This document shows positions 4,097 to 62,330 of a stretch of DNA of 64,000 bases, one piece after another. Numbering within the stretch: the stretch's first letter is position 1; every line of letters begins with the position of its first letter. Both the position numbers and the translations under genes were made by a program. Source of the stretch: Eledone cirrhosa (taxonomy: Eukaryota); NCBI GenBank assembly GCA_964016885.1, contig OZ024747.1, forward strand, positions 48,794,001 through 48,858,000, written 5' to 3'. The notes beneath the pieces were generated by a model. It worked only from the letters and a program-made list of their open reading frames with translations. It was not told the DNA's origin and ran no database searches.

Positions 4097-4290
4097 GTTA
4101 CACAACAGTTAGTTCACCGTACCGAGAACAATTGTTTCACCTTAGCGGATCCTCAGCTCGATTTACGAGCTAAGGTGAAACAATTGTTCTCGGTATGGTG
4201 AACTAACTGTTGTGTAACCACTTCTACCTAACTCGTCCCATGGACTGAGTGCTCTACCACTACGGATATTACCTTCCAGTGTTCTACTAC
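4094..4290 (+). mobile_element. Fold-back mini-insert, pLTR family A
   Basis: Inverted arms 4094-4146 and 4169-4222 plus 3' tail; TA flanks. Confidence 0.85.
4123..4160 (-). ncRNA. Minimal hammerhead
   Basis: Minus strand: cgag CTGAGGA tccgctaaggt GAAA caattg TT ctcg. Confidence 0.75.
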
Positions 4291-4539: not shown

Positions 4540-4680
4540 TTTGTTAAGGAGTTTTATGAAGTATATAAAATATAAAATATATTACCGGTTTCGATGTAAT
4601 CCATCTTATCAAATATTAAATTAAATATTACAATTAACAAAGAATTAAAAATTAAAAATCAAGTGTTGTTGAAGAAGGCA

Positions 4681-4747
<67 letters not shown>

Positions 4748-5030
4748 TATGTCTTTTCACAGAGCAAACGTGTTTTTAGGAAGAGGAATTTTTCTGTATA
4801 TATGTGTGTGTATCTCAATTGTGTTAAAGAACTGGTCAAGAGTTCAGCTGGAGGTGGTGAAGAGGGAAAATGTAAACTAGGGACAATTTCTTTAGGGTAG
4901 AGATATATATATAGGATTGTCAAAGTTATAGGACTGTAAAAGAAATTCTGTTTTAGGAATATGTTTTGAGAGGGTATGAGTGTGTATATGTGAGTGTATT
5001 TATATATAGAAATATGTATGTGTGTGTGTA
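4540..5030 (-). mobile_element. PLE 3'UTR/pLTR fragment with internal (TAG)n; inverted relative of 12700-13195
   Basis: Collinear reverse-complement similarity to 12700-13195, including the hammerhead. Confidence 0.75.
4579..4616 (-). ncRNA. Minimal hammerhead, U3:A8 variant
   Basis: Minus strand: atat TTGATAA gatg gatta catc GAAA ccgg TA atat. Confidence 0.75.
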
Positions 5031-5325: not shown

Positions 5326-9407
<4,082 letters not shown>

Positions 9408-9657: not shown

Positions 9658-9689
9658 ATATATATCACAATTCATACATCTCAATTCTA

Positions 9690-9722
9690 CTTTTGAAAAG
9701 CAGAACTGCGAAACCGGTAAAG
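9690..9722 (+). ncRNA. Minimal hammerhead, U3:A8 variant (relative at 35891-35926 on -)
   Basis: ctt TTGAAAA gcag aa ctgc GAAA ccgg TA aag. Confidence 0.7.
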
Positions 9723-9849
9723 GAACCAAATAAATATATATTTTTATAAAATAAGACTCCGCCTGCATTATCGATGTCATCTTTTTTCCTCATACTTTCA
9801 ATTGTGTAAGACTCCTCAGCTTTTTTTTCATTTTGTGAAAAAACCTCAC

Positions 9850-12660: not shown

Positions 12661-12962
12661 ATATATATACATTTATATATATACATATATATACACCCAC
12701 ATATATACACTCACATATACACACTCACACCCTCTCAAAACATATTCCTAAAACAGAATTTCTTTTACAGTCCTATAACCTTGACAATCCTATATATATC
12801 TCTCTCCCCTAAAGAAACTGTCCCTAGTTTACATTTTCCCTCTTCGCCACTTCCAACTGAACTCTTGAGCAGTCCTTTAACACAATTGAGACACACACAT
12901 ATATACAGAAAAATTCCTCTTCCTAAAAACACATTTGCTCTGTGAAAAGGCATAACTACTAT

Positions 12963-13025
<63 letters not shown>

Positions 13026-13133
13026 AATCACCCCTCTTTCTCTATATATAAGGTTCAATTTAGACCCAGTCTTCCTCCCAACAAGAAAGCACTTAATTTT
13101 TAATTTTTAATTATTTTTTAATTGTAATATTTA

Positions 13134-13171
13134 ATATTTGATAAGATGGAGTACATCGAAACCGGTAATAT
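13134..13171 (+). ncRNA. Minimal hammerhead, U3:A8 variant
   Basis: atat TTGATAA gatg gagta catc GAAA ccgg TA atat. Confidence 0.75.
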
Positions 13172-14355
13172 ATTTTATATTTTATATACTTCATCAATTA
13201 CCCAGTACAATACTGGTACTTTATTTTATCGACCCCGTAAGGATGAAAGGCAAAGTTGAAAGATCAAAGGCAAAGTATGATATTATAAATAATGAAGCTA
13301 AAGATATAGCAAGAAAATTAAGAAGAGATAATAGAACCGAAAGCCTAGCAAAACGTAAAGTCTATATTGCACTAAAATAGATTTCAATAACCGACCTAGT
13401 TGTAGACTTATTAAACCTGCTAAATCAGAAATTGCTGTTGCTAGTAAAAAAAATGTTAAGAAATAACATTAAATTAAATTAAGAAGTGCAACATAATTAT
13501 TTCAATGGTTAAATACCTCCTCAGTTATAACTTGGTTTAATAATATAAAAGAGAAAATTATATTTAGATTTACCCAATTAGATATAGCAGATTTATACCC
13601 TTCTATTACTCACTCCTTATTAGCTAATACATTAGAGTTTGCTAGACAATTTATTAATATATGAGAGCTAGAGGAAGATGTAATTGTGCACGCCAGAAAA
13701 ACATAACTTTTTGCCAAAGACGAGACCTGGGTAAAAAAATTAAACCCAGAAAATCTTTTTGATGTCTCGATGTGTGTGATTTAGTTGGTTTATTCCTCCT
13801 CCACGCACTTAAAGAGAAATTCCCCAATCACACTATCGAATTATATCGAGATGACTGACTAGCAGTCTCTCATACCACCAATGGCCATGATCTTCACAAA
13901 TTTCGAAAAGATTTGATAAAAGCCTTCTTTAATCTAAACCTTAAAATCACAATAGATACAAATCTAACTAATGCCAACTTCCTCGATATTGATCTTGATT
14001 TACTTACTGATTCTTTTAAGCTATATCATAAACCTAATGAACATTTAAGATATGTAAACAAAGTGTCATGCCATCCCCCCATAGTATTTAAAAACCATAT
14101 CCCGAATATTAGTCATAGGATATCAATCCTCTCTTCCATCCAAGAAATATTTAATAAAGTAGCTCCTTATTATAATAAGGCCCTTAAAATAGTGGTTTTA
14201 ACGAATCAAATAAATATATACCTAATCCTACTAATAATATTAAACATAATAATAGAAAAAGAAAAATAATCTGGTTTACACTACCTTTAGCACTAAAAAA
14301 TATGTAGGCAAAAAGTTCCTTGATCTCTTAGATAAGCATTTCCCCCAAATATAAT

Positions 14356-16834: not shown

Positions 16835-17423
16835 ATAAAATATTAAAAAAATAATGAATAAACAATGAAACAGTTCCTTATATTAAACAAAAAAAGTTCA
16901 TTATTTAACGATCGTTTCTAGGATATATATGTGTTAGAATTGGCATGCATATTCAACAGATCTATGTACAAAATTATACAAAATTATACAAACTATCAAA
17001 ATTAAATATACATACCAACACATATATATGCCGTCTTCAGAAATAATTTTCAGAAATATTTCAGAAATATTTCAGAAATATTATTTCTGAAGACGGCATA
17101 TATATGTGTTGGTATGTATATTTAATTTTGATAGTTTGTATAATTTTGTATAATTTTGTACATAGATCTGTTGAATATGCATGCCAATTCTAACACATAT
17201 ATATCCTAGAAACGATCGTTAAATAATGAACTTTTTTTGTTTAATATAAGGAACTGTTTCATTGTTTATTCATTATTTTTTTAATATTTTATCTTGACTC
17301 TGTATTCCGTTTATCTTTCACCGAAAGTGATTTTTCATTGCATCTCTTCTTTCCATGATATCCGGATTACATTGAGTTCTTCATACGGATTGGACACTAC
17401 CGTAAACTCTTGGTAGATTTATC

Positions 17424-17580: not shown

Positions 17581-17613
17581 TTCTCCTGATGAAGGGCTTA
17601 TGCCCGAAACGTC
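17581..17613 (+). ncRNA. Minimal hammerhead core; stem I partner lost
   Basis: CTGATGA agggc ttat gccc GAAA cgTC. Confidence 0.6.
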
Positions 17614-19498: not shown

Positions 19499-19958
19499 TG
19501 TATTAATTTTTGTATTCTCAAATATCCAAATCCGACAAAATGTTTGCTCACTAGACTCTGCAAGTAACCTGACAGAAGTAGTGAAAGTTGCATAAATATG
19601 TTCATATCATTTTTCCCAATGCAATCACTGTTAACATTTTACATTTTACATGTTACATTTTACATTTTACATTTTACATTTTATATTTTACATTTTACAT
19701 TTCTCTTACATCCTAATGTAACATGGCTAAATTTCAAATTTTAAAAAGAGAAGAAAACTGCCAAATGAATAAGATACATTTCACTTCCCCCGCCACTACA
19801 ATAACGTCTATACACTCTCCTCACCACCACATTTACACTTTTACACTCACACAAGTCAATACACAACCTATCTAGACGAAAGTCACTGAGCTGCTACCTT
19901 CCTCCCTACTTTGTGTTGAATATGTATGTGTGTATATATATCTATCTATATATATATA

Positions 19959-21495: not shown

Positions 21496-22056
21496 TTGCG
21501 AGGTTTTTTATATGAAATCGTGTGTCGAAACAGATATTGTTATATTTGGGGAGGGTCATATTTGCGTAATATTGCCAGAATTAATAACAGAACACACTCA
21601 CTGTTTGGTTGGTTTTCGCTTCTCGCTGTCTTTTATATATATATATCTGCGATCTAACTTACTCGGTCCTCAATGTTGCCATTGACTGACCGGCGGTCAA
21701 AAATAATACAGATACAATATAGACACAAACACATATATATAGTTTACATAATTTACATAAATCTTTCGTTGCACATCTGCAACATCGTCAGTGGTGTTAT
21801 ATTCATTGTTCCTCCTGTTGTGTTGTATGTCTACGCCATTTTTTTTTTTTGTTCAGTCTGTCTATATATTTATTTATTTATTTGCTTGTTTGTTTATCTT
21901 ATTTTATTTTGTCTTCTTTGCGCATGCGTTTGCGTGTGTGTATAGTGTGATGTGTGACTAGTGTGTATAGTGTTGTGTCTGCTGGGTGACTAGTGTGTGT
22001 TTATGTGCTTGTGTATGTATTTATTTATCTTATTTTATTTAATTTTATTTACTTAT

Positions 22057-23286
22057 TTATACTTCTCTTAGGTCAGTGTTGTTTGTTTGGGTGTTGTTGT
22101 TGTTCCACTCATTCTTTCTGTTTAGCTTTGGTCTTCTAATTTCTATTTCACTGGCCTCTCTGATTTGCCTATCTGCTGGGTCATTCCTATGTTTAGATAT
22201 TATTCTAATTTCTATGTTGTCTATGTTACCGTCATGTTGTTGTCTAGCATGTTCGTATAGTACTGACCCGTTTTTTCGTCCTTTTAGTTCCGCCCAGTGT
22301 TGGTCTATCCTTTCACCTATGCTACGAGCTGTCTCACCTATGTATGTTGTTGTCATGTTTCTGCAAGTACCCTCTGTACATCTTATGCTATAGACTACGT
22401 TTCTAGTTTTACAGTTTATCCGGGGGTTCACCTTACAAATGATACATTTCCTATTGGTACAGTGGGTTTTCTTAAAAGGGTAGGTTTTGCTGATCAGGGA
22501 TTTTATGGTGGTTCCTGGCTTTTCTACCACCTTTATTTTTAAGTGGGTCTTTCTCAGGGCCTTTCTACACTGGTTAGCTAATTTCCCTCCAGGGGTGGCG
22601 TCCACAAACATGACACTCTGATATCTCTGGTTGTCGTACCATGATGTGGCCTTCCCTATCTTATGTGTAGCCCTATCTAAGCTATTCCATGATTTGCTCC
22701 TGTATAGTGGGCAAATTCCTTTCATGTCCAGTTCTATGAGGGTCTTATACTTTTCCATGGCTCCTTCGTATACTCTGACTCTGTCTCTTTGGTTGTAGCC
22801 AGAGAACTGCATGCGGTTGATGAAGTGTTGGATGTGTCCTTCCATTTCTGTTGGGTCGCACATGCTGGACACATTCTTCATCACTCGTACCAAATCTGCG
22901 ATCAGAATATTAAACTTAGCACTACTGGACATTGCTGAGTTTTTGAGTATCAGGTATTTGGAGGCCATGGGTTTAGCATAGTGTGAGTGGAGAATTTGGG
23001 CTCTCTCGTCTATAGTGTTAATCCAGAGTTCTGTGTCTAATACAGGTAGTCTATTGTTAGGGTGTTTGGAAGGGAAGTCTATAGTTACAGTTATACTCTG
23101 GTGTATGGAATTAGCTATCTGCTGGATGCTTTCCATCGTGCTACGTTCTAAATTAAACTTGTTAGTGCTCTCTAGTGGGGGTGTTCTTATAACTATATTG
23201 ATATCGTCTACATAACGAGAGTACATGATGAGGTCTATGGAGCTTTCATTAAGGAGATCTTTAAGTCTCCTTTCCCACCATACCAT
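22057..23286 (-). CDS. PLE RT (C-terminal half) plus GIY-YIG endonuclease; frame stays open upstream to the inversion junction
   Basis: EGAAIGVSIAGDVAKLFMVWW, YSRYVDD, LPVLDTELW, CTNRKCIIC, NVVYSIRC..YIGETARSIGER. Confidence 0.9.
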   Translation of the reverse strand: MVWWERRLKDLLNESSIDLIMYSRYVDDINIVIRTPPLESTNKFNLERSTMESIQQIANSIHQSITVTIDFPSKHPNNRLPVLDTELWINTIDERAQILHSHYAKPMASKYLILKNSAMSSSAKFNILIADLVRVMKNVSSMCDPTEMEGHIQHFINRMQFSGYNQRDRVRVYEGAMEKYKTLIELDMKGICPLYRSKSWNSLDRATHKIGKATSWYDNQRYQSVMFVDATPGGKLANQCRKALRKTHLKIKVVEKPGTTIKSLISKTYPFKKTHCTNRKCIICKVNPRINCKTRNVVYSIRCTEGTCRNMTTTYIGETARSIGERIDQHWAELKGRKNGSVLYEHARQQHDGNIDNIEIRIISKHRNDPADRQIREASEIEIRRPKLNRKNEWNNNNTQTNNTDLREV

Positions 23287-23372
23287 GAAAAGTTTGGCAA
23301 CATCACCAGCTATGCTGACGCCGATGGCTGCTCCCTCATTTTGGGTGTAGATTTTCTCACTTAAAAATAAAG

Positions 23373-23846
23373 GTGGTAGAAAAGCCAGGAACCACCATAA
23401 AATCCCTGATCAGCAAAACCTACCCTTTTAAGAAAACCCACTGTACCAATAGGAAATGTATCATTTGTAAGGTGAACCCCCGGATAAACTGTAAAACTAG
23501 AAACGTAGTCTATAGCATAAGATGTACAGAGGGTACTTGCAGAAACATGACAACAACATACATAGGTGAGACAGCTCGTAGCATAGGTGAAAGGATAGAC
23601 CAACACTGGGGGGAACTAAAAGGACGAAAAAACGGGTCAGTACTATACGAACATGCTAGACAACAACATGACGGTAACATAGACAACATAGAAATTAGAA
23701 TAATATCTAAACATAGGAATGACCCAGCAGATAGGCAAATCAGAGAGGCCAGTGAAATAGAAATTAGAAGACCAAAGCTAAACAGAAAGAATGAGTGGAA
23801 CAACAACAACACCCAAACAAACAACACTGACCTAAGAGAAGTATAA
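23373..23846 (+). pseudogene. Inverted duplicate of the GIY-YIG coding segment
   Basis: 157 aa matching the 22057 ORF C-terminus except HWAE>HWGE. Confidence 0.85.
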
Positions 23847-24361
23847 ATAAGTAAATAAAATTAAATAAAATAAGATAAATAAATACATACACAAGCACAT
23901 AAACACACACTAGTCACCCAGCAGACACAACACTATACACACTAGTCACACATCACACTATACACACACGCAAACGCATGCGCAAAGAAGACAAAATAAA
24001 ATAAGATAAACAAACAAGCAAATAAATAAATAAATATATAGACAGACTGAACAAAAAAAAAAAATGGCGTAGACATACAACACAACAGGAGGAACAATGA
24101 ATATAACACCACTGACGATGTTGCAGATGTGCAACGAAAGATTTATGTAAATTATGTAAACTATATATATGTGTTTGTGTCTATATTGTATCTGTATTAT
24201 TTTTGACCGCCGGTCAGTCAATGGCAACATTGAGGACCGAGTAAGTTAGATCGCAGATATATATATATAAAAGACAGCGAGAAGCGAAAACCAACCAAAC
24301 AGTGAGTGTGTTCTGTTATTAATTCTGGCAATATTACGCAAATATGACCCTCCCCAAATAT

Positions 24362-24398
<37 letters not shown>

Positions 24399-27752: not shown

Positions 27753-27797
27753 AATATTGCTGATGAGTTGTAACAACAACGAAACTAGTTCAATATT
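27753..27797 (+). ncRNA. Intact minimal hammerhead of a nested pLTR fragment
   Basis: aatattg CTGATGA gttg taacaa caac GAAA ctag TT caatatt. Confidence 0.85.
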
Positions 27798-29821: not shown

Positions 29822-30109
29822 TTATATATATACAACACTTATATATATATCATACGATGGGGATCCTGAGACCTAAGCTTAAGCAGTTTCGGTGGCCAGA
29901 TCCATATGTATAATATAGCACACCCACCCCGCCCGAACCACCCCCACACCACCCCATTGTTCACCTCTTTCAAATGTAGGATGTTTTTTAACCTATAAAC
30001 CCTCTACTTTTATCGAGTACTCATCAGATATGATGACATTTACCCAGAATACCACAAATGTCAACAACATTGTTTCACGTTCCTGGATGTCATACAACCA
30101 TTGAATTGA

Positions 30110-30395
30110 TGGTGGTGGTGTCGGTGTTGATGGTGTTGGTGGTGTTGGTGGTGGTGTCGGTGGTGGTGGTGTTGGTGGTGGTGGTGTCGGTGGTGGTGGT
30201 GGTGGTGTCGGTGGTGGTGTTGGTGGTGTTGGTGGTGTCGGTGGTGGTGTTGGTGGTGTTGGTGGTGTCGGTGGTGGTGGTGGTGTTGGTAGTGGTGGTG
30301 TTGGTGGTGTCGGTGGTGTCGGTGGTGGTGGTGGTGGTGGTGGTGGTGGTGATGGTAGTGGTGGTGTTGGTGGTGTTGGTGGTGGTGTTGGTGGT
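30110..30395. repeat. (GGT)n-derived degenerate trinucleotide repeat
   Basis: ggt/gtt/gtc units. Confidence 0.9.
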
Positions 30396-31573
30396 GAAAG
30401 TAGTGGGCAACTGATTGTGATGGTAATGGTAGTAGTAAGGATGGTACGGATAGTGGAACTCGTTTTATATTTCCGGGTTTGAATCTTCCAGCTTCAATCA
30501 CTTCAATCACAAGTTGAAATAAATGAAATCGCAATCTAAAGACACTCCAATGAATCTCTGGAACGAAAAAAAAAAAAAAAAAAAAACGAAATATTTTGGT
30601 TTGATCTCTTCCCGCCTAAATAAATACACTTTAACTTCTCTCTCGGTCGGAATCTCCAGAATGTGACATTTTCCAAGCTATGATTCCCATAAATTTTCTT
30701 TTCTAAACACTCACTCACATAAAACAAAACAGATTCCAGCTTAAATTCCACAAGCAATCATTCTGTTTTGATGATTTACCACTATTCAACATGGATGTCT
30801 ATATTGCTGGTTTGTCGTCTGGACGTCTAGCTACACGTGGATTTAAACTCTTTGAAATCTCTGGAATTTTCCTCAGTTGATATAATTGGTTGAGGGTAGT
30901 GATGGTGGTAGTGGTGGTGGTGATGGTAGTGGTGCTGGTGGCGGTGGTGGTGGTGGTTGTTGTAGTGATGTTGGTGAGGTTGGTGTGGAGGTTGGTGAGG
31001 GGCTGGTAAGGGGTTGGTCGAGATAATAATAATAAGGATGTTGATGTTAGTGGGATTAATGTTGCAAATAGTAACATTAGTATTTATGAGTGTTGTTATT
31101 GTTGTTTAGTCCACAGATCAGCAATGGATCAAACATATTTATAATAAAAGGCATTCCTTCCATGACCTAAGTATTTTGTTTTCAAACATATGACTACCTA
31201 GATATACTAAGACAACCAACCTATGTTTGGCGGTGGTGGTTATGGTGGTGGTCGTGGTGATGATGGTTGTGGTGGTGTTAATGGTGGGGTTAGAGGTGAT
31301 GGGAGTGATGGTGGTTGTGATGGTGGCGGTGGGTGGTGGTGTGTGTGTGTGTGGGGGGGGGGGGTACAACATATAGAGGTTTGCCACGATAACCTATTGC
31401 GGAAGGTCTTCGTTTTTCTATATTGCTGCTGTTTCTGTTGTTTCTGTACCAGCTTTGTTTGACGTTGTAATTGTGGGTTGATGTACACACACAGACAAAA
31501 GAACAATTTTTTTTATATATCTATGTATATACGTATATACATACACACATACATACATACATAAACACATGTG

Positions 31574-34878: not shown

Positions 34879-35307
34879 CAGGTACACATACATATATGCA
34901 CGTATCAGTTTAGCGGACGCTTATTATAACGCCGCTTTGTTCGTTTGTCAACAAACTGAACAGCCTGAATTTATGCCATACGGTGTTAAGGCAACCACGT
35001 CACCTTTTTGTTCAACACTGACACAGGAACGATGTACTAGTTTCAAGCTTGTTAGCTATCATCAGCACCGTATACCCTTCTGCCAGATAGTTGAACGTTC
35101 GAAAGTATATACTTTCCTTATGAAAATTAACGGGTGAGCAGCCTAATTTGCATATCGAGTGAGTTAAATCGGTCAGGCATACCGAAAACGATAAGTTGAA
35201 ATAAAATGAAAACGAAATTTCATTTCTCACTCTTAATACGGCACTTACTTAAATGTAAGTATGTATGTATACGTACATACATATATGTATACAGACGTAC
35301 AGTGGCA

Positions 35308-35776: not shown

Positions 35777-35821
<45 letters not shown>

Positions 35822-36013
35822 AAAAAAAGATAAAATCGAAAATGCAACTGAAGTCTTATTTAAAAAAATATATATATACTTATTTGGTTCCTTTACCAGT
35901 TTCGCAGTTCTTCTGCTTTTCAAAAGTAGAATTGAGATGGAGGGTCTGTGGTTGGTCTTTGAATGTTACTTGTTTTATATGGAATATATATATATATATA
36001 TATATTTTTTTAA

Positions 36014-36049: not shown

Positions 36050-37998
36050 TGTTTCGTTCTGAATTTTTTTAGCAAGATTCTTTACCTAAAAACGTGTGTT
36101 GTTATACTTTGGGAGGGTCATGTTGCCAATATGAAACACACGCACCAGATGCTTTCACTCCAATTTATTATAAATTAAATTATAAATTTAAAAGATTTAT
36201 AAATTTCCGGTTGGTTTGTTGGTTCCACAACCGGACGGTTGTTTATATATTGTCAAAGTTCTTTCGTCAAACATTCTGTGACTTCTTCAGTGACTGGAGA
36301 TTCTTTTCTTTGTTTTGTGCCTCTCCTTTGGAAAACATATGCCCAAGAGGAGGGAGCAGCCATTGGTGTTAGCATTGCAGGTGACATAGCTAACCTATTC
36401 ATGGTATGGAGGGACAATAAACTTAAAGAACAAATAGAAGACACCAACCTCTTAACCCTGATAATGTACTCTCGCTATGTTGATGATATAAACATCGTAG
36501 TAAAAACACCCCCGCTAGAGAACAGTCAGGAATTAGAGAAACAACACCATGGAAAGCATCCAGCAAATAGCTAACTCCATCCACCAGAGTATTAGAGTTA
36601 CTATAGACTACCCAAGTAAACACCCCAACCATCGATTACCTGTACTAGACACAGAGCTCTAGTTAGAAACCATTAATAACAAAAAACAAATCCTCCATTC
36701 CCATTATGCCAAACCCATGACTTCCAAATATCTGATCCACCGAAACTCAGCTGTTTCGGATCACACCAAAATCAACATAATGATTGCGGATTTAGTACGG
36801 GTGATGAGGAACGTGTCCCGCATGTGCAACCCCAAAGAACCAGAGAGACACATACAACACTTCATCCACCGTATGCAGTTCTCTGGTTACAATCAGAGAG
36901 AAAAAATCAGAGTATATAGAGGAGCCAGAACCAAATGGGAAAAAAATGGGAAATAATGATACAAATGAGACCTGCCCCTTGTATAGGAGCAAATTTTGGA
37001 ATAGAATATAATGAACTAGGAATAAGGTGAATAGAATAAACTCATGGTATGATAGCAATAAATACTAGAGTGTAATGTTCATCAATACAACCCCTAGAGG
37101 TGAATTAGCTTACAAATTTAGAAGGACCCTAGATAAACTTAAACTAAATATTAAGATAGTAGAAAGACCAGGTACCTCCACAAAAACACTTATTAGTAAT
37201 ATATACCCTTTTCAAAGACCTCCCTGTATAGATAAGAAATGCATAATCTGTAAACTAAGCCCACATATTAACTGTAAAACTAGAAACATAGTATATAGCA
37301 TAAGATATACTGAAGGACAATATAAAGATAAGAATATAGTGTACATAGGTGTGACAGCTCGTAGTATAGGAGAACGATTAAATGTACACTTGCGATAGCT
37401 TCAAGATAGAAAAGAGTCATCAGTACTCCACCAACATGCTAAAATAGAGCATAAGGGCAAATTAGAGAACATAGAAATAAAAATAGAATCTACACACAGA
37501 AAAGACGCAATGTTTAGACAAATCACTGAGGCAATAAACATAAAAGAACTCCAACCAAAATTAAATAGAAAACATGAATGGAATAGCAACATCACAACTT
37601 ACAATTAAGGACAAAATGAAAACTCACACACATAGAACAAACAACCAACCAGTAACATGTAAATAAACAAATAAATAAACAAATAAAAACACACACAGAC
37701 ACCCGAATGTTACACATGCGCAAACTAAGCACACAACACACACAAAAACAAGATGGCGCAGGACAGAACAAAGGAGAGGCACAAAACAAAGAAAAGAATC
37801 CCCGGTCACTGATGAGGTCACAGAATGTGAGACGAAACAACTTTGAAAATATATGAACAACCGTCCGGTTGTGGAACCAACCAACCAACCGGGAATTTAT
37901 AAAAATTTTTAAATTTATAATTTCATTTATAATAAATTGGAGTGAAAGCAACTGGTCCGTGTTTCTTATTGGCAACATGACCCTCCCTAAGTATAACA
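36050..37998 (+). mobile_element. Decayed Naiad-like PLE with inverted upstream pLTR (36050-36330)
   Basis: EGAAIGVSIAGDIANLFM, YSRYVDD, CIDKKCIIC, YIGVTARSIGER; HHRs 36252-36294 (-) and 37805-37847 (+). Confidence 0.9.
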
Positions 37999-43689: not shown

Positions 43690-44095
43690 AAAAAACACAG
43701 TAGAAAATGCTAGAGGAATTTTTTCAGTATTACATCAAAACATTTATTTACAAAGTAGGGATATCCGCATTTAATTGTACCGGTTTCAGCTTTATATGCT
43801 TTTTTCAAGAACGGGAGTGTATAGTGCAGTTAAATTGCATATTCATAAGATACTAAGAAAATGGAGAAAAACAATTCAGTTTTTAGATATATATTTAGGG
43901 AGGAAAGTTTATATTTTTGTCCGTATTCTTCTTTCGTTATCTGTTAGTGTTGACCAACAGTGGTGGTAGCAGTTTAAGTTGTTGAAAAATCAAATAAAGC
44001 TGAAACCGGTACAATTAGAAGCGGAAATCCGTACTTTGTAAATAAATGTTTTGATGTAATAAAAATAATCTCTCTAGTATTTTCTACTGTGTTTT
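43690..44095. mobile_element. Older fold-back insert with U3:A8 hammerheads in both arms
   Basis: agttg TTGAAAA atc...gct GAAA ccgg TA caatt (43977-44016); mirror 43773-43812. Confidence 0.75.
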
Positions 44096-44155
44096 TCCTT
44101 TTTACTATTTCTTTATATATATCATATATCAACTCGTGTATCACTTCTCTACATT

Positions 44156-61793: not shown

Positions 61794-62321
61794 GTAGATA
61801 AATCTACCAAGAGTTTACGGTAGTGTCCAATCCGTATGAAGAACTCAATGTATTCCGGATATCATGGAAAGAAGAGATGTAATGAAAATCCAATTTCGGT
61901 GAAAGATAAACGGTATACAGAGTCAAGATAAAATATTAAACAAATAATGAACAAACAATTCCTTATATTAAACAAAAAAAGTTCACTATTTAACGATCGT
62001 TTCTAGGGCATATATGTGTTATAATTGGTATGCATATTTAACAGATCTATGTACAAAATTATACAAAATTATACAAATTATCAAGATTAAATATACATAC
62101 CTAACTCATATATACGCCGTCTTCAGAAATAATGAAGACGGCGTATATATGAGTTAGGTATGTATATTTAATCTTGATAATTTGTATAATTTTGTATAAT
62201 TTTGTACATAGATCTGTTAAATATGCATACCAATTATAACACATATATGCCCTAGAAACGATCGTTAAATAGTGAACTTTTTTTGTTTAATATAAGGAAT
62301 TGTTTGTTCATTATTTGTTTA

Positions 62322-62330
<9 letters not shown>
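61794..62330 (-). mobile_element. Family C fold-back centred at HHR stem I/core
   Basis: ...cttcagaaataa|tgaagacg...; HHR 61984-62132 (-). Confidence 0.85.

What the first reader, a model, noticed from the sequence alone, without database searches (positions are those of the whole stretch)
13134..13171. Recurrent U3:A8 covariant hammerheads in three families
Cores TTGATAA (13134, 4579) and TTGAAAA (9690, 35891, 43773, 43977) replace CTGANGA at both positions 3 and 8, preserving the established tertiary 3-8 Watson-Crick pair. All have an ACCGGT-type palindromic stem III (one mutated) and a GUA site. A compensatory change repeated across families argues for function, and consensus-based searches would miss these motifs.
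Basis: partly seen in the sequence, partly recalled or inferred. Interest (0 to 1): 0.75.

Follow-up and report, generated by a model that had tools for sequence, protein, structure and literature searches.

The report
Retrotransposon hammerhead motifs, U3-A8 core
The six sites are hammerhead-ribozyme motifs with a U3-A8 core, carried in the tail ends of Penelope-like retrotransposons; this variant has already been described in blood flukes, and it would likely cut RNA only when two copies pair.

Summary
All six sites exist within about 5 nt of the stated coordinates. They fall into three repeat families.

Genome-wide, the composite motif occurs 19,805 times (control 10). The C3/G8 form with the same stem III occurs 13 times (control 5).

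The motif lies in the 3'-terminal part of Penelope-like elements (one ORF with RT and GIY-YIG). It sits 1.0-1.4 kb after the stop codon in 25 of 30 ORF-bearing loci. 20 of the first 30 copies lie in head-to-head pairs. Stems I and II covary, and homodimer folds give a double hammerhead.

The change is not recurrent. U3/A8 is strictly linked to ACCGGU, while about 40,600 canonical C3/G8 hammerheads in the same genome carry ACUAGU. One lineage inherited the change.

The variant is in print: Cervera and De la Pena 2014 found it in Schistosoma Cercyon elements.

Cleavage is untested, and U3 could also pair with A17. Verdict: a new member of a known kind, of modest interest.

The parts
13134..13171 (+). 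Family A hammerhead motif. Stem I 5' strand 13134-13137; U3 13138; A8 13143; stem II 13145-13148 with 13154-13157; G12-A14 13158-13160; ACCGGU 13161-13166; A17 13167. Predicted cut between 13167 and 13168. Stem I 3' strand 13168-13171.
4579..4616 (-). Family A hammerhead motif, inverted partner of the copy at 13134. The core is intact; the stem II loop differs by one base.
9689..9723 (+). Family B motif of the short-loop subfamily. Its spacer is 3 nt shorter than the main family B form. Stem I is 3 bp followed by an A.G mismatch.
35890..35927 (-). Family B motif with stem III mutated to ACUGGU. This sequence can still self-pair, with two G.U pairs.
43978..44016 (+). Family C motif, decayed. 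Stem II is no longer paired; stem I has 5 bp.
43773..43812 (-). Family C motif, decayed. It has one extra A after A9, a 3-bp stem II, and a mismatch at the closing pair of stem I.
12701..13197 (+). Family A 3'-terminal fragment. It is one arm of an inverted pair with 4553-5003. The element ends about 25-30 nt after the GUA.
4553..5003 (-). Family A 3'-terminal fragment, the inverted arm.
9677..9790 (+). Family B 5'-truncated insertion. It starts 16 nt before the motif and runs about 70 nt past the GUA.
35820..35939 (-). Family B 5'-truncated insertion.
43691..44096 (.). Family C head-to-head inverted pair of two 5'-truncated copies. The arms are 43691-43812 (-) and 43978-44096 (+).
7670..8798 (+). 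Decayed ORF of a Penelope-like element. It keeps the YLDD motif of reverse transcriptase and a GIY-YIG-like block, and has many stop codons and a frameshift. It is about 40% identical to the family B ORF. It ends 895 nt before the family B motif at 9693 on the same strand. Whether the two belong to one element is not settled.

Best explanation
The six sites are copies of a minimal type I hammerhead motif with a U3-A8 core and a palindromic ACCGGU stem III, located in the 3'-terminal repeat of Penelope-like retrotransposons; the motif is predicted, not shown, to cut its own RNA after GUA when two copies pair through the palindrome.

Shown here:
- the motif, its copy number and the U3/A8 consensus state;
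- its position in elements that encode reverse transcriptase and a GIY-YIG endonuclease in one ORF;
- the typical Penelope insertion architecture: 5' truncation, inverted 5'-truncated partner copies, tandem copies, and ends in (TA)n;
- covariation in stems I and II.

Inferred:
- U3 and A8 form the 3-8 pair in place of C3-G8.
- The 2-bp stem III with a 2-nt loop cannot close alone. The active form would then be a double hammerhead, made either from two units of a tandem transcript or from two RNA molecules.
- Cleavage would process multimeric element RNA.

Integrated copies keep about 25-80 nt downstream of the cut site. The RNA that was reverse-transcribed was therefore not cut at its own 3' motif.
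For: Counts in the 3.0-Gb genome, with an N{8,16} spacer:
- U3/A8 + ACCGGTA: 19,805 (control 10)
- C3/G8 + ACCGGTA: 13 (control 5)
- U3/G8: 96 (control 5)
- C3/A8: 179 (control 14)
- Family A-like copies: 19 of 20 are U3/A8 and 1 is U3/G8.
- Family C: 192 copies. Of the 100 listed, 96 have T at position 3 and 4 have C; all 100 have A at position 8.

Link to Penelope-like elements:
- L043 has a 510-codon ORF with RVT_1 (E 5.5e-7) and GIY-YIG (E 8.3e-7), flanked by 880-nt inverted arms that carry the motif.
- In 25 of 30 loci found by that protein, a sense-strand motif lies 1.0-1.4 kb after the stop codon.
- 11 of those 30 loci keep an open 775-codon frame, and L120/L121 are tandem copies.
- 13 of 50 motif-selected loci (49 of family D or A-like, plus L049, a singleton with an unrelated spacer) have ORF remnants. 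In 9 family D loci the ORF (35-63% identical by segment) ends about 430 nt upstream of the motif in the same orientation; in L071 the distance is 817 nt.
- 20 of the first 30 copies form 10 head-to-head pairs 76-1,441 nt apart, with variable junction points.
- 3' ends land in (TA)n.

Structure:
- On 37 distinct sequences, 83.2% of cells pair, against 66.8% in shuffles (0 of 500 reach the observed value) and 30-48% with slid partners.
- 5 of 5 stem I pairs and 5 of 5 stem II pairs show changes on both sides. G.U pairs are present on this strand.
- Family C has a distal stem I with compensatory variants.
- ViennaRNA gives stem I plus stem II for consensus-like monomers, and a double hammerhead with an intermolecular ACCGGU:ACCGGU helix for homodimers.
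- Between families B and D, the only significant 3'-UTR similarity is the 65-95-nt block that holds the motif.

Literature:
- The U3-A8 covariation, opposite-strand pairs 100-700 bp apart, and palindromic helix III in Penelope-like elements are described in PMC4209133.
- Inverted 5'-truncated copies, the short tail extension and the (TA)n insertion bias are described in PMC8557442 (passages).
Against: - No cleavage or RNA-end data exist for these copies.
- In the passages I read, Penelope hammerheads cleave poorly in vitro even as dimers (PMC4209133). One needed the element's protein and was dispensable for insertion in vitro, and no RNA-seq reads ended at its cut site (PMC11167929).
- The U3-A8 form itself was not reported as assayed in what I read.
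- U3 can pair with A17. The predicted minimum-energy folds do pair them. By analogy with the C3-G17 trap proposed for G17 hammerheads (PMC3884650), this could hold the site in an inactive form. A17 is nevertheless the consensus: 19,805 against 435 for non-A.
- Stem I is weak in some families: 1-2 bp next to the core in D1 and D2. Two of the six window copies (family C) have lost stem II or the closing pair of stem I.
- Most loci were picked with the motif pattern itself, so invariance of the core in my alignment is partly by construction.
- Rfam hammerhead models give no hit.
Confidence: 0.75

Rival explanations
1. The block is a hammerhead-derived but catalytically silent 3'-UTR element of these retrotransposons. 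It would be kept because the element's reverse transcriptase or endonuclease recognises it, or because it helps place the start of reverse transcription. U3/A8 would be tolerated because cleavage no longer matters.
For: - It is the only conserved non-coding block between divergent families.
- It lies 25-80 nt from the 3' end, so every 5'-truncated copy keeps it.
- Integrated copies include sequence past the cut site, so uncut RNA was the template.
- Cleavage was dispensable for insertion of an Anolis element in vitro (PMC11167929).
- A U3-A17 pair is possible.
Against: - Every other hammerhead core position is kept, and the two changed positions are exactly the two that pair with each other.
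- The stem III palindrome and stems I and II are maintained by covariation, as in active dimeric hammerheads.
- A pure protein-binding site would not need this exact layout.
Confidence: 0.2
2. The sites are decayed canonical hammerheads. C3 to T and G8 to A would be independent transition mutations in an AT-rich genome, with no functional meaning.
For: - Both changes are transitions towards A/T, and the genome is about 35% G+C in this window.
- The same genome holds about 40,000 canonical hammerheads.
Against: - With the ACCGGU stem III, the canonical form is at background (13 against control 5) while U3/A8 stands at 19,805.
- Single-change forms are 0.5-0.9% of copies and mostly carry the stem II sequences of the U3/A8 families.
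- With the ACUAGU stem III, the U3/A8 form is at background: 127 against control 108.
- U3/A8 is therefore the state of the source elements, not decay of individual copies.
Confidence: 0.02
3. The inverted pairs are terminal inverted repeats of a DNA transposon or MITE, and the motif is a transposase binding site.
For: Many copies occur as close inverted pairs. The family A arms flank 7.7 kb in the window.
Against: - The pairs are head-to-head, with junctions at variable points inside the element.
- Homology runs outward to a fixed 3' end in (TA)n.
- Full copies carry a reverse transcriptase plus GIY-YIG ORF upstream on the same strand.
- Tandem direct copies exist.
- This is the published Penelope insertion pattern (PMC8557442).
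Confidence: 0.02

Closest known systems
U3-A8 minimal hammerheads in the terminal repeats of Cercyon Penelope-like elements of Schistosoma mansoni (Cervera and De la Pena 2014, PMC4209133)
   Same: - The same core covariation (U3-A8 instead of C3-G8).
- The same host element class.
- Mostly single, truncated copies, plus opposite-strand pairs 100-700 bp apart.
- About 1,300 hits there against about 19,800 here.
   Different: - The fluke motifs are described with a minimal helix III and a 7-8-bp helix II.
- Here helix III is a 2-bp stem with a CG loop forming the 6-nt palindrome ACCGGU, and helix II is 4-5 bp (up to 7 bp in a few family A-like copies).
- I could not see their figure, so position 17 and the exact stems cannot be compared.
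- The host genome is different.
Penelope-element hammerheads with a short palindromic helix III that act as dimers (Drosophila, rotifers, shrimps, mosquitoes; PMC4209133. Lunse et al. 2017 is known to me only through the review PMC6765202)
   Same: Type I layout, a small palindromic helix III, dimer dependence, and a location in the terminal repeat.
   Different: Those are described with the canonical C3-G8 core.
Canonical type I hammerheads of animal satellite or retrozyme-like tandem repeats
   Same: - The same genome holds 40,557 C3/G8 motifs with the palindrome ACUAGU (control 15).
- Some form arrays with a 466-bp period.
- Two lie in this window, at 27760 and 35040.
- They share the dimer-type helix III.
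   Different: - Core C3-G8, palindrome ACUAGU, and tandem short units.
- The U3/A8 copies were not seen as short tandem arrays.
Hammerhead of the Anolis Poseidon element PAc (Frangieh et al. 2024, PMC11167929)
   Same: A Penelope-element hammerhead whose 3-8 pair was tested: C3G and G8C each abolish cleavage, and the double change partly restores it.
   Different: It sits at the junction of terminal repeat and ORF, overlapping the start codon, and has the canonical core. Here the motif lies 0.4-1.4 kb downstream of the stop codon.

Membership tests
Hammerhead ribozyme (type I, minimal or dimeric class) | Conserved core U4 G5 A6, A9, G12 A13 A14, A15.1-U16.1, and H17 not G | tested here: met
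   All six window copies and the family consensus forms have these positions. Note that the search patterns required them.
Hammerhead ribozyme (type I, minimal or dimeric class) | C3 and G8 (canonical identity of the 3-8 pair) | tested here: not met
   Positions 3 and 8 are U and A in 19,805 copies, against 13 with C and G. A Watson-Crick 3-8 pair remains possible as U-A. This variant is reported in the literature (PMC4209133).
Hammerhead ribozyme (type I, minimal or dimeric class) | Stems I and II flank the core and are maintained by covariation | tested here: met
   83.2% of cells pair, against 66.8% shuffled and 30-48% slid. 10 of 10 stem I and II pairs show double changes. Stem I is weak in families D1 and D2.
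Hammerhead ribozyme (type I, minimal or dimeric class) | Stem III formed, here through a palindrome between two copies | tested here: met
   In silico only. Homodimer minimum-energy folds pair ACCGGU with ACCGGU and give a double hammerhead for consensus-like copies.
Hammerhead ribozyme (type I, minimal or dimeric class) | Site-specific self-cleavage 3' of position 17 | not testable with these tools
   No RNA run holding the element was listed. Only contigs could be laid.
Hammerhead ribozyme (type I, minimal or dimeric class) | Match to the Rfam hammerhead covariance models | tested here: not met
   0 hits at gathering over the window. No hammerhead hit at E up to 10 on 13080-13230.
Penelope-like element | Single ORF with reverse transcriptase and GIY-YIG endonuclease | tested here: met
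   RVT_1 and GIY-YIG lie in one 510-codon frame of L043. A 775-codon frame is open in 11 of 30 loci. The nearest Atlas clusters carry HTH_animal, DUF8422 and GIY-YIG or RVT_1. The window copy at 7670-8798 is decayed.
Penelope-like element | Terminal repeats from partial tandems and/or an inverted 5'-truncated copy; heavy 5' truncation | tested here: met
   880-nt inverted arms in L043. 10 head-to-head pairs among 30 copies, with variable junctions. Tandem copies L120/L121. Window pairs A and C.
Penelope-like element | Hammerhead motif inside the terminal repeat | tested here: met
   A sense-strand motif lies downstream of the ORF in 25 of 30 protein-selected loci.
Animal non-LTR retrozyme | Short tandem repeats, each unit carrying a hammerhead | tested here: not met
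   The U3/A8 copies in the window and in the listed loci are solo, inverted pairs, or part of units of about 3.9 kb. The canonical ACUAGU motifs do form 466-bp arrays.

The most novel reading that the evidence does not exclude
Two hammerhead systems share one nucleus and are kept apart by a two-part code. About 20,000 copies have a U3-A8 core with the ACCGGU dimer palindrome. About 40,000 copies have a C3-G8 core with the ACUAGU palindrome. The different palindromes would stop cross-dimerisation between the lineages. In the U3 lineage, the universal A17 could pair with U3 as an alternative to A8. That would give the ribozyme a built-in off state, released only in the dimer or by the element's protein.
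Probability: 0.1. Interest if true: 0.6.

Novelty: new member of a known kind. Interest (0 to 1): 0.3.

Why it matters
The finding shows that the U3-A8 hammerhead is not a rarity of one fluke element. It is the fixed state of a large Penelope lineage: about 20,000 copies, with an open 775-codon frame in 11 of the 30 ORF loci examined. Standard covariance-model scans do not detect it.

The same genome also carries about 40,000 canonical dimer-type hammerheads. It therefore offers a natural side-by-side system for testing three things: what the 3-8 pair contributes, whether a U3-A17 pair interferes, and what hammerheads do for Penelope elements, which the papers I read still call unclear. The finding does not establish a new kind of ribozyme.

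Tried and rejected
- **RNA evidence.** The look-up of sequencing runs listed no RNA holder for the family B stretch. Four runs of unknown kind, kept as contigs, were laid. They showed no other letter at 10% or more at positions 3 and 8, and (TA)n loose ends at the element's 3' end. Contigs cannot show RNA ends. A second lay on the four runs guessed to be RNA (X1-X4) did not complete five times.
- **Rfam.** Nothing at gathering over the window and no hammerhead model at E up to 10 on site A.
- **Window ORFs.** A Pfam scan of 18 window ORFs gave only a weak RVT_1 hit and a zf-RVT hit elsewhere in the window. The Penelope ORF in the window was found only by tblastn with the L043 protein.
- **Other Penelope families.** The protein search of the genome returned only the family B element: all 84 scored matches were 94-100% identical. 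It could not give a motif-independent sample of other Penelope families.
- **Family A source element.** Family A-like loci share only about 100 nt around the motif. None had a convincing ORF upstream within 1.5 kb, so family A's autonomous partner is not identified.
- **Literature.** Searches for C3U/G8A biochemistry found nothing useful. Lunse et al. 2017 is not held.
- **Rejected readings.** MITE or terminal-inverted-repeat, and decayed canonical copies; see the rival explanations.
- **Supplements.** The supplementary figures of PMC4209133, which show the motif families, were not consulted.

Full report
**1. The observation**

All six sites are present.
- TTGATAA starts at 13138 (+) and 4606 (-). 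TTGAAAA starts at 9693 (+), 35917 (-), 43802 (-) and 43982 (+).
- Each heptamer is followed, after 10-14 nt, by GAAACCGGTA. This is exact in five copies and reads GAAACTGGTA at 35894 (-) (sequences).
- The heptamers alone are no more frequent than chance: 13 against 22.4 expected, and 16 against 13.8. The 10-mer is enriched: 7 matches with up to 1 mismatch against 2.4 expected.
- Self-BLAST of the window confirms three repeat families: A at 4553-5003 and 12701-13197; B at 9677-9790 and 35820-35939; C at 43691-43812 and 43978-44096.
- At 13134-13171 every hammerhead position can be assigned: U3 13138, A8 13143, stem II 13145-13148 with 13154-13157, G12-A14 13158-13160, ACCGGU 13161-13166, A17 13167.

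**2. Genome-wide counts and the consensus state**

The window is C7:48794001-48858000 of a 3.0-Gb genome.

| Pattern (N{8,16} spacer) | Count | Reversed control |
|---|---|---|
| TTGANAA + GAAACCGGTA | 19,805 | 10 |
| CTGANGA + GAAACCGGTA | 13 | 5 |
| TTGANGA + GAAACCGGTA | 96 | 5 |
| CTGANAA + GAAACCGGTA | 179 | 14 |

- The single-change copies mostly carry the stem II sequences of the U3/A8 families, so they are mutated individual copies.
- Among family A-like copies (stem II GAUG...CAUC), 19 of 20 are U3/A8 and 1 is U3/G8.
- Family C has 192 copies. Of the 100 listed, 96 have T and 4 have C at position 3; all 100 have A at position 8.
- The subset with T at position 7 numbers 1,833.

**3. 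What carries the motif**

- Between two family B copies 5.7 kb apart (L043), a 510-codon frame has both RVT_1 and GIY-YIG. It is flanked by 880-nt inverted arms, 93.5% alike, each holding the motif near its outer end.
[quoted passage not shown] The Cys-rich linker between the two domains is visible in the translation. According to PMC8557442 (passages), such a linker marks the Neptune and Nematis clades. That assignment is my inference.
- Searching the genome with this protein gave 84 scored matches at 94-100% identity.
- In the 30 loci returned, a sense-strand motif lies 1.0-1.4 kb after the stop codon in 25. The frame is open for 775 codons in 11. L120 and L121 are tandem copies.
- Among 50 loci selected by the motif (49 of family D or A-like, plus L049, a singleton with an unrelated spacer), 13 have ORF remnants. 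In 9 family D loci the ORF (35-63% identical by segment to family B's) ends about 430 nt upstream of the motif in the same orientation; in L071 the distance is 817 nt.
- In the window itself, a decayed ORF of this kind lies at 7670-8798 (+). It is about 40% identical to family B's, keeps YLDD and a GIY-YIG-like block, and has many stop codons.

**4. Insertion architecture**

- Of the first 30 copies, 20 form 10 head-to-head pairs, 76-1,441 nt apart start to start.
- The alignment shows the two copies joined at different internal points in different pairs. Every copy runs outward to the same 3' end, about 80 nt past the GUA, and then into (TA)n.
- Family A-like copies share only about 100 nt around the motif and end 25-30 nt after the GUA.
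- This is the published Penelope pattern: strong 5' truncation, partial tandems, an inverted 5'-truncated copy at the 5' end, and a (TA)n insertion bias (PMC8557442, passages). Hammerheads lie near the 3' ends, and opposite-strand motif pairs occur 100-700 bp apart (PMC4209133, section 5).
- The window's family C pair and the family A arms fit this pattern.

**5. Is it folded like a hammerhead?**

- On an alignment of 37 distinct copies from families A, B, C and D, the hammerhead pairing gives 83.2% paired cells. Shuffles give 66.8% (0 of 500 reach the observed value) and slid partners give 30-48%.
- All five stem I pairs and all five stem II pairs show changes on both sides. G.U pairs occur on this strand.
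- The rows were chosen with the motif pattern and are related, so core invariance is by construction and the shuffle count is not a probability. The slid control and the stem changes are still informative.
- More stem II variants appear in minor families. Family C has a distal stem I with compensatory variants.
- Consensus-like monomers fold into stem I plus stem II. Homodimers fold into a double hammerhead joined by ACCGGU:ACCGGU.
- The only significant similarity between the 3' UTRs of families B and D is the 65-95-nt block that holds the motif.
- Weak points: stem I is only 1-2 bp next to the core in families D1 and D2, and the two family C copies in the window are decayed.

**6. Recurrent or inherited?**

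The same genome holds many canonical hammerheads.

| Core | with ACCGGU(A) | with ACUAGU |
|---|---|---|
| U3/A8 | 19,805 (control 10) | 127 (control 108) |
| C3/G8 | 13 (control 5) | 40,557 (control 15) |

- CTGANGA...CGAAAC occurs 34,773 times (control 1,494).
- Core type and stem III palindrome are thus strictly linked.
- Together with the related ORFs, this points to one change inherited by a diversifying Penelope lineage. It does not support a compensation repeated in three families. This remains an inference, because I made no tree.

**7. Known or new?**

[quoted passage not shown] A descriptor for it retrieved about 1,300 hits.
- They also report palindromic helix III variants in flies, rotifers, shrimps and mosquitoes, and low in vitro activity of dimeric and trimeric constructs.
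- My literature search for 'U3-A8' found only that paper.

**8. How it most likely works, and the doubts**

- The 2-bp stem III with a 2-nt loop cannot close on its own. The active form would be a dimer, as proposed for such hammerheads (PMC4209133; review PMC6765202).
- In head-to-head pairs the two motifs lie on opposite strands. Only tandem transcripts or two RNA molecules could therefore supply the partner.
- Integrated copies keep sequence past the cut site, so uncut RNA was the template. This agrees with the Anolis element, where cleavage was dispensable for insertion in vitro (PMC11167929).
- One new caveat: U3 can pair with A17, and the predicted folds do pair them. This mirrors the C3-G17 trap proposed for G17 hammerheads (PMC3884650). 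A17 is nonetheless the consensus: 19,805 against 435 for non-A.
- Cleavage is therefore predicted, not shown.

**9. Verdict**

The hammerhead reading is supported. The claims of recurrence and novelty are not. This is a new, very large member of a known kind.

Noticed in passing
window 27760-27785 (+), 35040-35065 (-), 17586-17610 (+), 37809-37838 (+), 4134-4156 (-): Canonical-core (CUGANGA...GAAAC) hammerhead-like motifs: 6 pattern matches in the window against 0.25 expected. The sixth match, at 51822-51850 (+), shows no hammerhead features.
- 27760: stem III ACUAGU, cut site GUU, and a 7-bp stem I.
- 35040: stem III ACUAGU, cut site GUA, and a 6-bp stem I.
- 17586: the minimal ACGU/GUC form.
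Rfam at gathering reported none of them.
   Followed up: partly
G000 C1:5738327-5752334 and C1:14044540-14050193: Tandem arrays of canonical hammerheads with a period of about 466-469 bp, resembling animal retrozyme or satellite repeats. Genome-wide there are 40,557 C3/G8 motifs with the ACUAGU stem III.
   Followed up: partly
window 21534-22545 and 23358-24369: A 1,012-nt inverted repeat, 100% complementary, with 812 nt between the arms. It surrounds a 450-codon open frame (22060-23409, -) that has no Pfam match. Two more perfect palindromes lie at 16835-17292 and 61928-62330.
   Followed up: no
window 55944-57500, 58240-58531 and 30049-30441: Long arrays of a 9-nt tandem repeat that produce spurious long ORFs in several frames.
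   Followed up: no
window 46111-46566 (+) and 36203-36571 (+): Traces of other retroelements: zf-RVT (E 7.5e-8) and a weak RVT_1 hit (E 8e-4).
   Followed up: no
G000, many places (for example C1:114901674, C2:100226283): A recurrent 25-nt sequence with CUGAAAA, an 8-nt spacer and GAAACCGGUA. It looks like a separate repeat family with a C3/A8-type core and a very short stem II. A similar stretch lies in L013.
   Followed up: no
window 4680-4700 and 12960-13024: A (TAC)n microsatellite lies inside both family A arms, about 70-110 nt upstream of the motif.
   Followed up: no
L039:1487-1544 (-): A single family B-like copy with both C3 and G8. It is one of the 13 canonical matches with ACCGGU.
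   Followed up: no
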